From a virus: a stretch of DNA of 10,139 nt. Shown here in pieces: positions 8 to 4,927 of the stretch. Both the position numbers and the translations under genes were made by a program. Each line of letters begins with the position of its first letter. Within the stretch, counting starts at the first letter, position 1. The stretch lies in the UHGV virus genome UHGV-0107762; one strand, given 5' to 3'. The notes below the pieces were generated by a model. It saw nothing but the letters and a program-made list of their open reading frames with translations. It made no database searches and was not told the DNA's origin.

Positions 8-34
8 CTTTAGCATAACGTCATTGTGCGAACC
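8..34 (-). other. Degenerate dif-like sequence, inverted relative to the dif at 8404
   Basis: The minus strand reads GGTTCGCACAA-TGACG-TTATGCTAAAG: 9/11 matches to the XerC arm and 9/11 to the XerD arm of dif, but with a 5-nt rather than 6-nt central region. Confidence 0.3.
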
Positions 35-49
35 AAAATCTTTTAGATT

Positions 50-241
50 TTATTTTCCGCAAGCAGGGCAGACGTTTGCATCACCAAATTGCATTGTAGT
101 GCTTTTATTCACACTAAAACTTTCGAATCCTTCACGTAAGGATTTTTTTTCACCATTAAAAAGATATGTTGTAAATTCTTTTTTCTCCGCATCAGTCAAT
201 TGAAGCCAGAGAGCTTTGACTTGATCTACTTTATAACTCAT
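50..241 (-). CDS. Small hypothetical protein (63 aa) with C-terminal CPAC motif; downstream gene of a two-gene operon
   Basis: Internal ATG at 241 of the 50..283 ORF is preceded by a strong SD (AAGGAG, 6-nt spacer) that overlaps the TAA stop of the upstream gene (253-255), suggesting translational coupling. No homolog recognised. Confidence 0.45.
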   Translation of the reverse strand: MSYKVDQVKALWLQLTDAEKKEFTTYLFNGEKKSLREGFESFSVNKSTTMQFGDANVCPACGK

Positions 242-252
242 TTGTTTCTCCT

Positions 253-834
253 TTATTTCACGAGATTGCCACAATTTGTGCAACCTTTCCGCTTGTTAAA
301 TTTAGTCGGTATTTTATTGCAACGTACGCATTCTTTATTTTTCTTTACCAGAATGTCGAACATAATCCGTTTCTTATCATTATTGCTAACATATTTTTCA
401 TCTTCCTTGGCATTGAAGTCATCTTTTGATTTTATCACTGAAAACAAATGGTTAGCGGGTTGCTGGTTGCCTGTCTTTGATTTAAACATGCTCGACAGTT
501 CGCCATACAAATCAGTTAGGAGTTTATTGAAAGAGTATGATTCCAGATATCGAGATAAATTTTCATCAGTCTTCATGACCAGTGTGTATAAATTAGAAAG
601 CAAGACTATCACTGATAATATCCCTGTGCCCCAAACTAAAAAATCAAAATATTTGGAGCTGTGATCAACCGATGCGTATCCTCCAACTAGGACAGGGAGG
701 GCAAATGATAGATATTGGTTTATTTTTAAAAGTCGTTCGCTTTTTTTGATTTTAGTTTTTAAGTAGTCAGCTGTTCCCTCTGCGTAAAATTTCCTGAGGT
801 CCATTTCTTCATTCGGTTGCATACTCATCTTCAC
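253..834 (-). CDS. Hypothetical 2-TM membrane protein with C-terminal 4-Cys zinc-ribbon-like motif (CVRC...CTNC)
   Basis: 193-aa ORF: N-terminal amphipathic region, two hydrophobic helices (LSFALPVLVGGYASV and LVWGTGILSVIVLLSNLYTLV) separated by a short loop, then a Lys-rich tail with CxxC-x13-CxxC. Visibly AT-rich. Start is uncertain (GTG 834, ATG 828 or ATG 822; SD AAAGGTG lies just upstream). Confidence 0.55.
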   Translation of the reverse strand: MKMSMQPNEEMDLRKFYAEGTADYLKTKIKKSERLLKINQYLSFALPVLVGGYASVDHSSKYFDFLVWGTGILSVIVLLSNLYTLVMKTDENLSRYLESYSFNKLLTDLYGELSSMFKSKTGNQQPANHLFSVIKSKDDFNAKEDEKYVSNNDKKRIMFDILVKKNKECVRCNKIPTKFNKRKGCTNCGNLVK

Positions 835-900
835 CTTTCACAATATCAAACTAGCGCGGGCTGAAATTATAAAAAACCTGTAAATTCAAGTGATTGACAT

Positions 901-1323
901 TCACCAATAATATGAATTCCTTCTGTGCCACCAATAAAGCAGACCGTATCCGACGATAAGAATCCCGAAGAACATCAGAGACATTCCCCAGCCAGTTCCA
1001 TACCACGAAACCATATCATCGAAAACCAGCCCACCCGTTTCACGAACTCCGGCAGCTTCCTTAAGAATTGGCTTGAATATCGGAATCAGAAGGGCGATCG
1101 CCAGTGGAGCACCCCAGCGAACAAGACCAGTTTCCATTTTGATACCGAAAAAGATCCCCGCACCGACAACAAGCAGCCAGACTATCAGGCCAGGCGCAGT
1201 TTCCAGTGCTGTTTGCCATTCAACATCGAAAGTTTTCATTAGCCAGGCTACAACAGCCAGGCAGAAAGCAAATACGCCTACAACAACCAGTTCAACGCCG
1301 CTTGTTCCGTTATTTCTACTCAT
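901..1323 (-). CDS. Hypothetical small integral membrane protein (about 4 TM helices)
   Basis: 140-aa ORF with four hydrophobic stretches (LVVVGVFAFCLAVVAWL, GLIVWLLVVGAGIFFGI, GAPLAIALLIPIF, GMSLMFFGILIVGYGLLYWW). SD-like AGGA sits 8 nt upstream of ATG 1323. The overlapping + strand ORFs (925..1242, 1073..1363) look non-coding by composition. Confidence 0.55.
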   Translation of the reverse strand: MSRNNGTSGVELVVVGVFAFCLAVVAWLMKTFDVEWQTALETAPGLIVWLLVVGAGIFFGIKMETGLVRWGAPLAIALLIPIFKPILKEAAGVRETGGLVFDDMVSWYGTGWGMSLMFFGILIVGYGLLYWWHRRNSYYW

Positions 1324-1411: not shown

Positions 1412-1594
1412 TTAATCCTTTTGTTTGGCAGACATGAGATCTTCTGCTGCATCTTTAGAGTAGTTATCAATCAGATAACCTAAAATCTCTGTCCATGTAA
1501 TTGTTTTTCCTAGTTTTACACTGGCATTTATAGCCAGTCGTTCTAGTTTCATTTTTCTTTCTTCCGTCACGTTATAAGTCGTGCGCTTTGCCAT
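1412..1594 (-). CDS. Putative ribbon-helix-helix (CopG/Arc/MetJ-like) transcriptional regulator, candidate phage repressor
   Basis: 60-aa ORF MAKRTTYNVTEERKMKLERLAINASVKLGKTITWTEILGYLIDNY. The N-terminal beta-strand with alternating residues, helix, G-x-T turn and second helix follow the RHH pattern (compared with CopG from memory). Transcribed divergently from gII, analogous to rstR/rstA in CTXphi. Confidence 0.5.
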   Translation of the reverse strand: MAKRTTYNVTEERKMKLERLAINASVKLGKTITWTEILGYLIDNYSKDAAEDLMSAKQKD

Positions 1595-1620: not shown

Positions 1621-1723
1621 TGAAGTGAGTATACATGCTCATGAACTCATATCATCCAATCCTCTTGAACTCACTAGCTCACTGGTGTAATGTTAAAACA
1701 CTAATGAACTACTGAACTCATGT
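1621..1723. promoter_or_regulatory. Candidate operator/promoter region between the divergent regulator and gII: repeated TGAACT(C/A) motifs plus a putative sigma70 promoter
   Basis: TGAACTCA at 1642-1649, 1666-1673 and 1713-1720, and TGAACTA at 1704-1710. AGTGAGT (1624-1630) is the inverted copy of ACTCACT (1669-1675). Possible -35 TTGAAC (1665-1670) and -10 TAATGT (1688-1693) with a 17-nt spacer, so one repeat overlaps the -35. Confidence 0.4.
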
Positions 1724-3637: not shown

Positions 3638-4927
3638 ATGAGAAGGAAAATATTAATTCTTTCCGCTGTCCTCATTTCTCCTTTTTCACATGCTGAGTCA
3701 TGGGAAAGCATTACTAAATCCACTTATCAAAGTTCTGCCTATGCTGAAAGTAAGCAAATAACCAATCAGGATGGCTCTAAGATAACGGTTTACTATATTG
3801 ATGCTGCTATGCAGGCCTCCGCTTGTCAGGGTGCTAAATCCAGTGCTCAGAGTGTATTTACTCGGATTAAACCAACTTATGAGGGTATCTGGCCTGATTC
3901 TGAATTCCGTCTTGTTTTTACTGGCGATTGTACTTACAGCGATTCACCAGGGCAGAAGGATAAATATTGGTCTTTAACGGCTTATATTGTTGGTAATATT
4001 CAGCGTTCTGTTCCTGATGAAAAACCTACTGACCCGACACCAGAAGAAATTTGTGAAGCGAAGCCGCCAGAAGAAGGTGTATTTAATAATGTTGATTCAT
4101 ATGATGGTGGTCGCTATATCTACTATAACGGCTGTGAATATGAGGCTACTGGTGTCATTGTTTGTCAGGGTGATGGTACTGTTTGCGCTGCAACATGGAA
4201 GCCTACAGGTGCTGTAGCTGACCCCTCTGATAAACCCTCAACCCCCCAAAATGGTGGTGGTGAGTCTGGCGGTGGTGAGTCCGGCGGTGGTGAGTCCGGT
4301 GGTGGTGAGTCCGGTGGTGGTGAGTCTGGCGGTGGTGAGTCCGGTGGCGGTAGTTCTGGCGGTAGTTCTGGCGGTAGTTCTGGCGGTGGCTCTAGTGGTT
4401 CCAGTCTTTCTAAAGGTGATATTCAGTCTGCGATCGAAGGTGCTTCACCCAAAATAGCCAGCGATATTCATGATAAATTAACGGAGAAAGACACTTCATC
4501 AGATGATAAAAAAAATGCCGATGAACAAACCAGGAATAATATAAATCGTCTTGACGATTCCATTAACAATCTTACGCGGGGGGCTGGCCGTTTTGCTGAC
4601 CCTTCAGGTGGTGATTCTCGTTATGGAAAGGGCGACTCTGAATTAGATGGCGCTTCTACTTTAGCTGATTCTGAATTGGGAATTGAAAAGGATTCTCACG
4701 GTGCTTTATGGGAAGCATTTTTAAATAAAGGTGCTATGCTGCCTAATTTACCCAATGGTAACGGCTGCTCTGATTTTATTATTTTTCCCGGAGAGGTTTA
4801 TCAGATTGATATTGGTTGCGATAAATTACTGACTATTAAAGATGTTCTTTCATGGGTTTTTTATTGCCTTACGTTCTGGTATGTCTTTACTTCTTTAACT
4901 TCATTGCTTCGCAAAGGGGGTGAGTGA
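3638..4927 (+). CDS. gIII: Attachment/adsorption protein pIII
   Basis: In-frame ATG 3638 gives signal peptide [46 protein letters not shown] matches the M13 pIII TolA-binding N1 motif GCLWNATGVVVCTGDETQCYGTWVPIG. A (GGGES)n/(GGSS)n linker follows, and the C-terminus (...[23 protein letters not shown]...[17 protein letters not shown]) parallels the M13 pIII C-terminal anchor. The track ORF 3494..4927 is a 5' over-extension. Confidence 0.92.
4253..4406 (+). repeat. Tandem in-frame codon repeat encoding the Gly/Ser/Glu linker of pIII
   Basis: Six copies of the 15-bp unit GGTGGTGGTGAGTCY (GGGES), then three copies of GGCGGTAGTTCT (GGSS) and a degenerate tail. Confidence 0.85.

What the first reader, a model, noticed from the sequence alone, without database searches (positions are those of the whole stretch)
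50..834. AT-rich two-gene operon: 2-TM zinc-ribbon membrane protein plus a 63-aa Cys-containing partner (candidate defense or exclusion module)
Two translationally coupled minus-strand genes: the stop of the first overlaps the SD of the second. The first protein has an amphipathic N-terminus, a tight pair of TM helices and a Lys-rich tail with CxxC-x13-CxxC. The 2-TM hairpin topology is reminiscent of small membrane effectors in abortive-infection and nucleotide-signalling systems (for example SLATT-type proteins); that comparison is an inference, not a demonstrated homology. The operon is markedly AT-richer than the phage core, suggesting separate acquisition.
Basis: inference. Interest (0 to 1): 0.65.

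Follow-up and report, generated by a model that had tools for sequence, protein, structure and literature searches.

The report
SLATT-like membrane protein with tiny partner
A swappable cargo slot at the end of an E. coli filamentous prophage holds a two-gene module: a membrane protein of the uncharacterised "mobilome CxxC" family, distantly related to pore-forming SLATT immune effectors, and a tiny, often unannotated zinc-knuckle protein that follows it in every relative examined; the module is probably a toxin-plus-regulator device used in conflicts between mobile elements, but its function is untested.

Summary
Two tightly coupled minus-strand genes are present: ORF1 (253-828, 191 aa) and ORF2 (50-241, 63 aa). 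Both are under strong purifying selection.

ORF1 is a clear member of NCBIfam TIGR04402 / Pfam PF27874, "mobilome CxxCx(11)CxxC protein" (143 bits against a cutoff of 70). No function has been assigned to this family. HMM hits across the family and Foldseek hits of a high-confidence AlphaFold model both point to the SLATT 2TM effector superfamily as a remote relative, here fused to a C-terminal zinc ribbon.

ORF2 belongs to a family absent from Pfam, NCBIfam, PHROGs and PADLOC. It has helices followed by a C-terminal "GP..C.xCG[KR]-stop" knuckle. It lies directly downstream of the ORF1 homologue in every locus examined, about 17 lineages from at least four phyla, including IncF plasmid leading regions.

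The pair fills a polymorphic slot (window 37-902) of a dif-integrating inovirus. Other E. coli strains carry Abi-like or nuclease cargo there.

My best reading is a self-contained membrane-toxin plus small-regulator module serving maintenance, abortive infection or exclusion. The function is inferred, not shown.

The parts
253..828 (-). ORF1, 191 aa (stop at 253-255; alternative starts are GTG 834 and ATG 822). Member of TIGR04402 / PF27874 'mobilome CxxCx(11)CxxC protein': a SLATT-like 2TM hairpin, a cytoplasmic helical bundle and a C-terminal zinc ribbon.
   Evidence: (143.1 bits against cutoff 70)
718..816 (-). ORF1 residues 5-37: N-terminal amphipathic, positively charged cytoplasmic helix, continuous with TM1 in the model. 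Contains the conserved AEGTAD motif.
664..717 (-). ORF1 residues 38-55: TM helix 1, with Pro45 and Gly49 nearly invariant across the family.
574..648 (-). ORF1 residues 61-85: TM helix 2. A 4-5 residue loop separates it from TM1.
271..330 (-). ORF1 residues 167-186: zinc ribbon CVRC-x12-CTNC in a Lys-rich tail. C167, P174 and C183 are invariant and C170, C186 and G187 are nearly invariant across 106 family members.
242..255 (-). Gene junction: ORF1 stop TAA overlapping the AAGGAG Shine-Dalgarno of ORF2, with an 11-nt gap between stop and ATG (translational coupling).
50..241 (-). ORF2, 63 aa (stop at 50-52): soluble partner with three predicted helices, including the conserved 'L(S/T)xxE(K/R)xEF' stretch, then a beta-hairpin. 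It belongs to a family absent from Pfam, NCBIfam, PHROGs and PADLOC.
53..70 (-). ORF2 residues 58-63: the C-terminal knuckle CPACGK, directly before the stop. This is the hallmark of the partner family (C-x-x-C-G-[KR], 0-3 residues from the end).
37..902 (.). Polymorphic cargo cassette of the prophage. Positions 1-36 and 903 onward are conserved backbone; other strains carry unrelated cargo between these exact boundaries.
866..871 (-). Perfect TATAAT hexamer inside the cassette, 38 nt upstream of the ATG at 828. It has only a weak -35 (3 of 6 at a 17-nt spacer), so it is a possible cassette-borne promoter and no more than an inference.
   Evidence: read directly from the sequence; the consensus scan did not call it
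901..1323 (-). Backbone gene directly upstream: 140-aa membrane protein (phrog_4174), conserved in all related prophages. Its stop codon marks the cassette boundary.
1412..1594 (-). Backbone 60-aa gene (phrog_2503), first gene of the minus-strand unit and divergent from gene II. A promoter-like site lies at 1628-1655 (-).
8404..8431 (+). Exact 28-bp E. coli dif site marking the right end of the prophage unit, which implies XerCD/dif integration.
   Evidence: neighbours of the prophage in other strains are hipBA

Best explanation
The module is a self-contained two-gene membrane effector plus regulator, carried as exchangeable cargo by mobile elements. In this window the carrier is a dif-integrating E. 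coli inovirus prophage.

**Shown here**
- ORF1 is a member of the TIGR04402 / PF27874 family.
- ORF1 is predicted to sit in the inner membrane as an N-in/C-in two-helix hairpin. Its cytoplasmic side carries a helical bundle and a Lys-rich four-cysteine zinc ribbon.
- The hairpin region is remotely related to SLATT domains, the predicted pore-forming effectors of CBASS-like and reverse-transcriptase (DRT) defence systems.
- ORF2 is a soluble protein of about 63 aa whose extreme C-terminus is a single CPxCG[KR] zinc-knuckle. A gene of this type follows the ORF1 homologue, tightly coupled, in every relative examined.

**Inferred**
- When released, ORF1 oligomerises and permeabilises or depolarises the inner membrane, causing growth arrest or death.
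- Translational coupling makes ORF2 whenever ORF1 is made. ORF2 binds the cytoplasmic bundle or zinc ribbon and holds ORF1 inactive, like an antidote or gatekeeper.
- Loss, titration or turnover of ORF2 would free ORF1. Triggers could be infection by another phage, shut-off of host translation, or loss of the element.
- The element would gain stable maintenance, abortive-infection-type exclusion of competitors, or both.
- Unlike classical SLATT systems, no nucleotide-generating enzyme is involved.
For: **Family membership**
- ORF1 scores 143.1 bits against the TIGR04402 cutoff of 70. All 106 sampled relatives pass the cutoff, and precomputed PF27874 hits are on record.

**Structure and topology**
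- The AlphaFold2 model has pLDDT 95.5 and pTM 0.86.
- Hydropathy and charge support an N-in/C-in hairpin.

**SLATT link, from three independent sources**
- NCBIfam: SLATT_1, SLATT_4 and SLATT_5 are hit by 61, 28 and 5 of 106 members, with best E-values of 1.8e-6, 1.4e-5 and 3.2e-3.
- Pfam: DUF4231, SLATT_4, SLATT_6 and SLATT_fungal give sub-threshold hits.
- PADLOC: CBASS '2TM effector' at 1.3e-6 and 'RTasSLATT' at 2.6e-6.
- Foldseek against BFVD: the top hits are SLATT-annotated proteins (probability 0.98-1.0, query-normalised TM-score 0.46-0.63).
- As a small control, the neighbouring 140-aa membrane protein gave no SLATT hit.

**What SLATT effectors do**
- A SLATT effector is required for both defence and toxicity in DRT10 (preprint 10.64898/2026.04.29.721553).
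- SLATT domains were predicted to be pore-forming effectors by Burroughs et al. 2015, as cited in PMC7159879.

**The pair is obligate**
- A partner gene lies directly downstream in every locus examined, about 17 lineages. These include Pseudomonadota, Actinomycetota, Bacteroidota, Planctomycetota and metagenomes.
- The C-terminal motif occurs in 38 of 1,638 small ORFs across 308 kb of fetched DNA. All 38 are the partner.

**Selection**
- Both genes are under purifying selection.

**Conflict context**
- The same prophage slot holds AbiJ-like, DpnII/MboI-type nuclease and PADLOC-candidate cargo in other strains.
- Relatives sit next to restriction genes, HigB, TIR+caspase genes, a methyltransferase and Fic genes, and in the IncF leading region beside an antirestriction gene and hok.
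- Inoviruses are known to carry toxin-antitoxin and exclusion cargo (PMC6813254).

**Asymmetry consistent with a toxic ORF1 and a protective ORF2**
- Decayed loci keep ORF2 but lose the ORF1 hairpin: a Y. enterocolitica remnant in 24 contigs and the deletion fusions P0027 and P0029.
- No locus had an intact ORF1 without the partner.
Against: - No experiment or toxicity data exist for any family member, and the held literature has no paper on it.
- The window protein's own SLATT hits are sub-threshold: SLATT_1 at E=0.06 and 13.3 bits against a 41-bit cutoff, and DUF4231 at E=0.088.
- The Foldseek E-values are weak (0.017-0.3), and similarity between TM hairpins can be partly compositional.
- PDB searches gave only generic helical bundles.
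- PADLOC has no model for either window protein.
- The direction of ORF2's effect, inhibitor or activator/sensor, is not determined.
  - The ORF2 model is of low confidence (pLDDT 64).
- The decayed loci could reflect one-sided deletions from the phage side rather than selection against ORF1.
- The gene order, effector first and small partner second, is the less common one for type II toxin-antitoxin pairs.
Confidence: 0.5

Rival explanations
1. The parts are the same but the logic is reversed. ORF2 is the sensor or activator: it recognises an invader-derived cue (a protein or nucleic acid) and switches the ORF1 pore on. This would be a true two-component abortive-infection system, not an antidote-type pair.
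For: - SLATT effectors in known systems are activated by a partner's product.
- Some loci carry two diverged tandem partner paralogues of 63 and 59 aa, as expected for diversifying sensors.
- The N-terminal half of ORF2 varies more than its C-terminal half (pN 0.118 against 0.078; alignment).
- The prophage slot and several relatives lie among defence genes.
Against: - ORF2 is tiny and has no recognisable ligand- or nucleic-acid-binding domain.
- Strict translational coupling, and loci that keep ORF2 but lack the ORF1 hairpin, fit an antidote better.
- Nothing tested here discriminates between the two directions.
Confidence: 0.2
2. The module is not a killing device. It is an establishment, entry-exclusion or anti-defence function of elements that enter cells as single-stranded DNA. 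A membrane-anchored, Lys-rich zinc-ribbon protein and its cofactor would act at the inner membrane when inovirus or conjugative-plasmid DNA arrives, either blocking entry of related elements or protecting incoming DNA.
For: - The window copy is in an inovirus, and a second, different inovirus backbone carries the 50%-identical pair.
- A paralogous pair lies in the leading region of 165 E. coli/Salmonella plasmids, nearly all typed as conjugative. On the IncF plasmid examined it is on the same strand as, and next to, an antirestriction gene.
- Zinc ribbons with basic tails often bind nucleic acids (general knowledge).
Against: - The family also occurs on non-mobilisable plasmids, on Streptomyces and Rhodococcus plasmids, and on planctomycete and metagenome contigs with no link to ssDNA entry.
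- No hit was found in 50,697 phage records or in IMG/VR.
- The SLATT relationship points to an effector role.
Confidence: 0.15
3. ORF2 is a small Cys-containing peptide product, bacteriocin-like or RiPP-like, and ORF1 is its membrane export or immunity protein.
For: - ORF2 is a small protein with an invariant C-terminal Cys motif, encoded next to a small membrane protein.
Against: - ORF2 has no signal or leader peptide and no cleavage motif. It is hydrophilic (maximum KD19 of -0.04) and its N-terminal helices are conserved.
- No modifying enzyme or transporter is conserved nearby.
- ORF1 has only two TM helices, with both termini predicted to be cytoplasmic.
Confidence: 0.03
4. The two ORFs are chance or decaying reading frames in AT-rich filler DNA and have no function.
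For: - The cassette is rare: it is in 1 of 5,426 complete E. coli genomes and in no species-representative genome.
- Decayed copies exist.
Against: - Purifying selection is strong on both ORFs.
- ORF1 makes a full-length match to a curated family that comprises 264 clusters at 50% identity.
- The fold prediction is high-confidence.
- The partner is conserved across at least four phyla.
Confidence: 0.01

Closest known systems
NCBIfam TIGR04402 / Pfam PF27874 (Mob_CxxC_CxxC), 'mobilome CxxCx(11)CxxC protein'
   Same: ORF1 matches the full length of the model (residues 7-188 against profile positions 2-179 of 180) at 143 bits, above the 70-bit cutoff. It has the same length of about 190 aa, the same four Cys and the same mobile-element context. 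RefSeq already annotates the identical protein, WP_077684033.1, under this name.
   Different: - The Cys spacer here is 12 residues, not 11.
- The family has no assigned function.
- Neither its SLATT relationship nor its obligate small partner is recorded in the libraries or papers I could search. The partner gene has no family and is sometimes not annotated at all.
[quoted passage not shown]
   Same: - Both have a two-TM hairpin flanked by cytoplasmic helices.
- Family-wide sub-threshold HMM hits fall on SLATT_1/4/5/6, DUF4231, the PADLOC 2TM effector and RTasSLATT models.
- The top structural neighbours are SLATT-annotated.
- In both, the SLATT-type gene is tightly coupled to its partner gene. 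DRT10 SLATT-RT genes overlap stop and start codons.
   Different: - No SLATT model reaches its curated cutoff for the window protein.
- ORF1 carries a C-terminal zinc ribbon.
- No cyclase, SLOG, TIR or RT partner and no ncRNA is present. The only conserved partner is a protein of about 65 aa.
- The whole system is under 0.9 kb.
Accessory toxin-antitoxin and superinfection-exclusion cargo of inoviruses (for example PfiAT of Pf4, and the 15 toxin-antitoxin sets in Roux et al. 2019), and membrane-toxin addiction genes such as hok in IncF leading regions
   Same: - It is a small two-gene cassette at the accessory end of a filamentous prophage or in a plasmid leading region.
- It is exchangeable by lateral transfer.
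- Its plausible role is maintenance or exclusion.
   Different: - There is no homology to any known toxin or antitoxin family.
- The putative toxin is a 2TM SLATT-like protein, not an RNase/ParE-type toxin or a Hok peptide.
- The putative antidote has no DNA-binding domain, and it is a protein, not an antisense RNA.
Rubredoxin/zinc-ribbon 'CPxCG' knuckles
   Same: The ORF2 C-terminus (CPACGK) and the second knuckle of ORF1 (CTNCGN) fit the classic knuckle consensus. hhalign aligns only these 9 columns.
   Different: - ORF2 has a single knuckle with only two Cys, so it cannot bind a metal ion alone. It would need dimerisation or a partner's ligands.
- The knuckle sits at the very C-terminus in almost all members.

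Membership tests
TIGR04402 / PF27874 mobilome CxxCx(11)CxxC protein | Whole-protein HMM score above the curated cutoff, with a full-length match | tested here: met
   143.1 bits against a cutoff of 70, E=1.1e-41, residues 7-188 on profile positions 2-179 of 180. PF27874 is precomputed for close homologues.
TIGR04402 / PF27874 mobilome CxxCx(11)CxxC protein | C-terminal CxxC-x11-CxxC motif | tested here: met
   Four Cys at 167, 170, 183 and 186. C167 and C183 are invariant and C170 and C186 nearly invariant across the family. The spacer is 12 residues in this subfamily and 11 in the 50%-identical relatives, a one-residue insertion.
TIGR04402 / PF27874 mobilome CxxCx(11)CxxC protein | Mobile-element context | tested here: met
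   Inovirus prophage cargo slot. Relatives lie on plasmids and another inovirus.
SLATT domain superfamily | Score above the gathering or curated threshold of a SLATT model | tested here: not met
   Window protein: SLATT_1 at 13.3 bits against a cutoff of 41 (E=0.06); DUF4231 at 13.7 bits against 24.7. Across the family there are many sub-threshold hits, 61 of 106 to SLATT_1 with a best E of 1.8e-6, which supports a remote relationship only.
SLATT domain superfamily | Two closely spaced TM helices with flanking cytoplasmic helices | tested here: met
   AlphaFold2 model and family hydropathy and charge profile.
SLATT domain superfamily | Fold similarity to recognised SLATT proteins | tested here: inconclusive
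   The top Foldseek BFVD hits are SLATT-annotated (probability 0.98-1.0, TMq 0.46-0.63), but E-values are 0.017-0.3. No SLATT structure was found in the PDB. The AFDB library was unavailable.
SLATT domain superfamily | Genomic association with a nucleotide- or DNA-synthesising partner (SMODS/CD-NTase, SLOG, TIR, RT) | tested here: not met
   No such gene lies within the cassette, which has room for only the two ORFs. None is conserved next to relatives. TIR+caspase genes lie 1.4 kb away in one plasmid, but in a separate unit.
SLATT domain superfamily | Membrane permeabilisation or toxicity on activation | not testable with these tools
   This needs expression and membrane-potential assays.
Type II-like toxin-antitoxin module | Two small adjacent, co-oriented, translationally coupled genes on a mobile element | tested here: met
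Type II-like toxin-antitoxin module | Homology of either protein to a known toxin or antitoxin family | tested here: not met
   No significant hit in Pfam, NCBIfam, PHROGs or PADLOC.
Type II-like toxin-antitoxin module | Toxicity of one product, neutralised by direct binding of the other | not testable with these tools
The only indirect evidence is asymmetric decay of the locus.
Known anti-phage defence systems (PADLOC-DB v2) | Match of the proteins to a defence-system model | tested here: not met
   No hit for ORF1 or ORF2 of the window. Only some distant family members hit 2TM-effector or RTasSLATT models. The partner family has no hit.

The most novel reading that the evidence does not exclude
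The TIGR04402 protein and its overlooked CPxCG[KR]-terminated partner form a widespread, previously unrecognised minimal conflict system. In it, a peptide-sized zinc-knuckle protein directly gates a SLATT-type membrane pore, with no nucleotide second messenger. The system may be deployed mainly by elements that enter cells as single-stranded DNA (inoviruses, IncF leading regions), to kill or arrest the cell when establishment fails or a competitor invades. This would be the simplest known SLATT system and a tractable model for how SLATT pores are gated, which the DRT10 preprint calls a central open question.
Probability: 0.3. Interest if true: 0.75.

Novelty: new variant of a known kind. Interest (0 to 1): 0.6.

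Why it matters
- **Mechanism of SLATT effectors.** SLATT effectors recur in CBASS-like, TIR and reverse-transcriptase defence systems, yet how they are activated and what they do to the membrane is unresolved. A system of under 0.9 kb, made of a SLATT-like protein and one partner of about 63 aa, would be the simplest setting in which to study SLATT gating.
- **A function for an orphan family.** The work suggests a role for a named but uncharacterised family. A paralogue is present in the leading region of 165 E. coli and Salmonella plasmids (162 of the 174 plasmid matches overall are typed as conjugative).
- **An annotation gap.** The partner gene has no family in Pfam, NCBIfam, PHROGs or PADLOC, and some genome annotations miss it altogether.
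- **A cargo hotspot.** Window 37-902 is a precisely bounded cargo-exchange site in dif-integrating E. coli inoviruses and collects Abi-like and nuclease genes. It could be mined for further conflict systems.

Tried and rejected
**Searches that found nothing useful**
- No DNA or protein match in 50,697 phage records.
- No relative in IMG/VR or in 185,579 species-representative genomes. This enterobacterial subfamily is a rare, strain-level accessory.
- Profile searches of PDB sequences gave nothing significant. The weak TFAM HMG-box hit to ORF2 (E 0.1-0.3) covers only a 'W..LS..EK' helix-capping pattern, and I rejected it.
- Rfam found no RNA family in the window.
- The consensus promoter scan found nothing inside the cassette.
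- Literature searches on the family names and accessions returned no paper. I could not retrieve Burroughs et al. 2015.

- The AFDB fold library was not available.
- The broad alignment A3 was too divergent for locus scanning.

**Ideas tested and dropped**
- ORF2 as a duplicated C-terminal piece of ORF1: hhalign aligned only the 9-residue knuckle, at probability 15%.

**Considered and rejected**
- A RiPP/bacteriocin pair.
- A holin-type lysis function; I know of no lysis step in the inovirus life cycle, which is my own knowledge.
- Chance ORFs.
Full report
**1. What the window is**

The window is an E. coli-type filamentous (Inovirus) prophage.
- On the plus strand it encodes:
  - the gene II replication protein (1722-2816; Phage_CRI and G2P_X_C);
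  - a gene V-like DNA-binding protein;
  - the major coat protein;
  - a Gly-rich attachment protein;
  - a gene VI-like protein;
  - Zot/gene I;
  - a secretin.
- An exact 28-bp E. coli dif site lies at 8404-8431. In other strains the same prophage sits beside hipBA. I recalled the dif sequence from memory; the zero-mismatch match confirms it. The element therefore integrates at dif.
- On the minus strand, divergent from gene II, lie a 60-aa gene (phrog_2503) and a 140-aa membrane-protein gene (phrog_4174). The two ORFs of the finding follow them.

**2. The observation**

- ORF1 (253-828, 191 aa) and ORF2 (50-241, 63 aa) are as described.
- The ORF1 stop TAA runs into the AGGAG of ORF2's ribosome-binding site, and 11 nt separate the stop from the ATG.
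- ORF1 probably starts at the ATG at 822 or 828, not the GTG at 834. Most homologues begin at the Met encoded at 822.
- The cysteines are at 167, 170, 183 and 186, so the motif is CxxC-x12-CxxC, not x13.
- GC content is 35.5% against 41.4% for the rest of the window. This bias is real but modest, and one stretch of gene I matches it.
- Both ORFs are real genes. Against copies that are about 81% identical in DNA, ORF1 has pN 0.04-0.05 with saturated pS of 0.74-0.77, and ORF2 has dN/dS of about 0.1.

**3. The cassette is exchangeable cargo**

- Of 5,426 complete E. coli genomes, 246 share the backbone from about position 893 (903 in the pairwise alignments) onward. Only one, strain C10, which carries two tandem prophage copies, has the whole region.
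- Pairwise alignment puts the boundaries at window 37 and 902. Positions 1-36 are 100% identical in the other strains, and similarity resumes at the stop codon of the 140-aa gene.
- In the same slot other strains carry:
  - an AbiJ_NTD4+DUF7014 protein (PADLOC candidate PDC-S32);
  - a DpnII/MboI-type nuclease-domain protein that matches pAgo-associated 'Aga_Helical-REase' models, together with DUF6953;
  - an ECs_2282 zinc-binding protein (matching PDC-S64) with a 159-aa orphan;
  - a 363-aa orphan.
- Separate acquisition is therefore established far more firmly by this polymorphism than by base composition. The slot behaves like a hotspot for conflict-related cargo.

**4. ORF1**

- ORF1 is a clear member of NCBIfam TIGR04402, 'mobilome CxxCx(11)CxxC protein' (143.1 bits, cutoff 70, E=1e-41, full length). 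This corresponds to Pfam PF27874, Mob_CxxC_CxxC. RefSeq names the identical protein in this way.
- An exhaustive HMMER search of 1.84 billion representative proteins found 264 clusters at 50% identity with E<1e-3. Nearly all are about 190 aa and match full length.
- With a 106-sequence alignment, AlphaFold2 gave a very confident model (pLDDT 95.5, pTM 0.86).
  - A long helix (5-54) runs into TM1.
  - A 4-residue turn follows, then TM2 (59-84).
  - Three more helices follow (87-116, 123-143, 149-162), then a small zinc ribbon.
- Family-averaged hydropathy shows exactly two hydrophobic segments. The charge distribution is N-terminus +3.8, loop -0.35 and ribbon +2.3, which implies that both termini are cytoplasmic.
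- Across the family, C167, P174 and C183 are invariant. P45 and G49 in TM1, D143, L160, C170, C186 and G187 are nearly invariant.

**5. Relationship to SLATT**

The window protein alone gives only sub-threshold hits: SLATT_1 at E=0.06 and DUF4231 at E=0.088. The signal is consistent across the family.
- Of 106 members, 61 hit NCBIfam SLATT_1 (best E 1.8e-6), 28 hit SLATT_4 (1.4e-5), 5 hit SLATT_5, and single members hit SLATT_6 and SLATT_fungal.
- In Pfam, 17 hit DUF4231, 5 SLATT_4, 3 SLATT_fungal and 2 SLATT_6.
- In PADLOC, 11 hit a CBASS '2TM effector' model (1.3e-6), and 8 member-matches across five DRT 'RTasSLATT' models were recorded (best 2.6e-6).
- Foldseek of the model against BFVD returned SLATT-annotated giant-virus proteins as the top named hits (probability 0.98-1.0, TMq 0.46-0.63, E 0.017-0.3).
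- The PDB holds no informative relative.

I conclude that ORF1 is a remote member or relative of the SLATT superfamily, fused to a zinc ribbon. I do not file it as a member of any existing SLATT family, because no curated threshold is met.

SLATT domains are predicted pore-forming effectors (Burroughs et al. 2015, as cited in PMC7159879). A SLATT protein is required for both defence and toxicity in DRT10 (preprint 10.64898/2026.04.29.721553).

**6. ORF2 and the pair**

- ORF2 has no hit in Pfam, NCBIfam, PHROGs or PADLOC. Close homologues are confined to Enterobacterales.
- Reading the DNA downstream of increasingly distant ORF1 homologues revealed the same kind of small gene every time. It is 49-71 aa. 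It has an N-terminal helix carrying 'L(S/T)xxE(K/R)xEF', a variable linker, then '(F/L/M)G(P)x3-6 C-x-x-C-G-[KR]' ending 0-3 residues before the stop.
- The loci where it was found:
  - a second inovirus backbone with 50%-identical ORF1, which carries two tandem paralogues;
  - a Plesiomonas plasmid;
  - a Rhodococcus plasmid, where the gene is not annotated;
  - planctomycete and other metagenome contigs;
  - an E. coli IncF plasmid, a Flavobacterium plasmid and a Streptomyces plasmid;
  - ten further metagenome loci.
- This amounts to about 17 lineages with no exception.
- Across all fetched DNA (308 kb, six frames), 38 of 1,638 ORFs of 40-95 aa end with the motif. All 38 are this partner.
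- The divergent partners also lack any Pfam, NCBIfam or PADLOC family. Precomputed Pfam annotations of the collection, which do include the newer PF27874, list none for them.
- The gene junction is always tight, from a 29-nt overlap to a gap of at most 37 nt.
- AlphaFold2 of ORF2 alone is of low confidence (pLDDT 64). It suggests three helices and a C-terminal beta-hairpin carrying the knuckle.
- ORF2 is hydrophilic and has only two Cys. It cannot complete a tetrahedral metal site on its own.

**7. Context of relatives**

- A paralogous pair, about 25% identical, occurs in 165 E. coli and Salmonella plasmids. Of the 174 plasmid matches overall, 162 are typed as conjugative.
- In the ATCC 11775 IncF plasmid the pair lies at the far end of the leading region. 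It is on the same strand as, and next to, an antirestriction gene, DUF1380 and hok, between these genes and sopAB.
- Other relatives neighbour a restriction endonuclease and a helicase/DUF1156 pair; HigB and TIR+caspase genes; and an N6/N4 methyltransferase and Fic genes.
- Inoviruses are known to carry diverse toxin-antitoxin and superinfection-exclusion cargo (PMC6813254).

**8. Decay pattern**

- In Yersinia enterocolitica (24 contigs) a chromosomal remnant keeps an intact ORF2 (87% identity, dN/dS about 0.15). ORF1 there lacks residues 1-95, that is, the N-terminal helix and both TM helices.
- P0027 and P0029 are deletion fusions that remove most or all of ORF1 but keep the ORF2 C-terminus.
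- No locus had an intact ORF1 without a partner.
- This asymmetry is what a toxic ORF1 and a protective ORF2 would produce. However, the sample is small, and one-sided deletions from the phage side could give the same picture.

**9. Mechanism proposed**

Shown:
- family membership;
- predicted membrane topology and fold;
- the remote SLATT relationship;
- the obligate, coupled partner;
- purifying selection;
- the location in a cargo hotspot.

Inferred:
- ORF1 oligomerises to permeabilise or depolarise the inner membrane.
- ORF2, made in step with ORF1 through translational coupling, binds ORF1's cytoplasmic bundle or ribbon and keeps it shut.
- Loss or titration of ORF2 releases ORF1, for example on infection, translation shut-off or loss of the element.
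- The effect would be post-segregational or abortive-infection-type killing that benefits the carrier element.

I give this about 0.5. The main rival keeps the same parts but makes ORF2 the activating sensor (0.2). A non-lethal establishment or exclusion function at the membrane, for elements that enter as ssDNA, is a further rival (0.15). Bacteriocin-like and chance-ORF readings are essentially excluded.

**10. Novelty and verdict**

- ORF1's family is already named, but I found no assigned function and no paper on it.
- Two points do not appear in any library or paper I could search. The first is its relationship to SLATT effectors. The second, more important, is that it always comes with a tiny CPxCG[KR]-terminated partner that has no family and is sometimes unannotated.
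- I could not read Burroughs et al. 2015, so earlier mention there cannot be excluded.
- I rate this a new variant of a known kind: a minimal, enzyme-free SLATT-type two-gene module. Interest is 0.6.
Its interpretation is partly supported: architecture, SLATT resemblance and separate acquisition hold, while a defence or exclusion function remains plausible but untested.

Noticed in passing
window 8404-8431: An exact 28-bp E. coli dif site marks the right end of the prophage unit. The same prophage lies next to hipBA in other strains and is present as two tandem copies of about 8.49 kb in E. coli C10. It is therefore a dif/XerCD-integrating inovirus and has no integrase of its own inside the unit.
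   Followed up: partly
window 8566-10089 (+): A 507-aa tyrosine-recombinase-like ORF lies just beyond dif, with weak Phage_integrase and phrog_1 hits. This flank occurs in 162 E. coli genomes, where it is annotated as 'site-specific integrase (x2)', and 62 of the places are on plasmids. It appears to be a separate element abutting dif.
   Followed up: partly
window 37-902, compared with L002-L005: The cargo slot has precise boundaries and holds at least five unrelated cassettes in different E. coli strains: the pair studied here; AbiJ_NTD4+DUF7014; a DpnII/MboI-nuclease-domain protein with DUF6953; ECs_2282 zinc-binding protein with a 159-aa orphan; and a 363-aa orphan with no family hit. It could be mined as a hotspot.
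   Followed up: partly
L024 4998-5798; L027 22932-23732 (E. coli ATCC 11775 IncF plasmid NZ_CP033091.2): A distant paralogue pair (WP_000343071.1 and WP_000092896.1) sits in the IncF leading region, between an antirestriction gene and sopAB. It is present in 165 E. coli and Salmonella plasmids. Both this context and the inovirus context are elements that enter cells as single-stranded DNA.
   Followed up: partly
L010 5518-5733 (Rhodococcus erythropolis plasmid NZ_CP091860.1): The 71-aa partner gene, which ends in CPCCGR, overlaps the end of the annotated mobilome CxxC gene and is missing from the record's annotation.
   Followed up: yes
L017-L019 6699-7192; L022 4947-5204 (Yersinia enterocolitica): A chromosomal remnant with no phage genes keeps an intact ORF2 homologue, but ORF1 is reduced to residues 96-191. 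A spurious antisense gene is called over the remnant. In L022 a further deletion fuses the ORF1 fragment to ORF2.
   Followed up: yes
L006 6166-6547; L007 4175-4558: In the 50%-identical module of a different inovirus backbone, the partner gene is duplicated in tandem (63 aa and 59 aa). The two copies have diverged strongly but keep the N-terminal helix motif and the C-terminal knuckle.
   Followed up: partly
window 8132-8365 (+): A conserved 77-aa backbone ORF (phrog_5435) with two CxxC pairs (CDRC ... CQHC) lies just before dif. It has a weak zinc-finger hit only, and its function is unknown.
   Followed up: no
window 4251-4400 (+): The attachment-protein gene contains a run of GGGES/GGSS repeats, which raises local GC to about 55%. 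This is the usual glycine-rich linker of gene III proteins. The ORF list extends this gene upstream to 3494, overlapping the coat gene, whereas RefSeq starts it at about 3611.
   Followed up: no
window 34-49 (-): A short AT-rich hairpin (AAATCT-AAA-AGATTT) followed by a short T-rich stretch (TGGTT) lies directly after the ORF2 stop and straddles the left cassette boundary. It may be a weak terminator or a recombination junction. The terminator scan did not call it.
   Followed up: no
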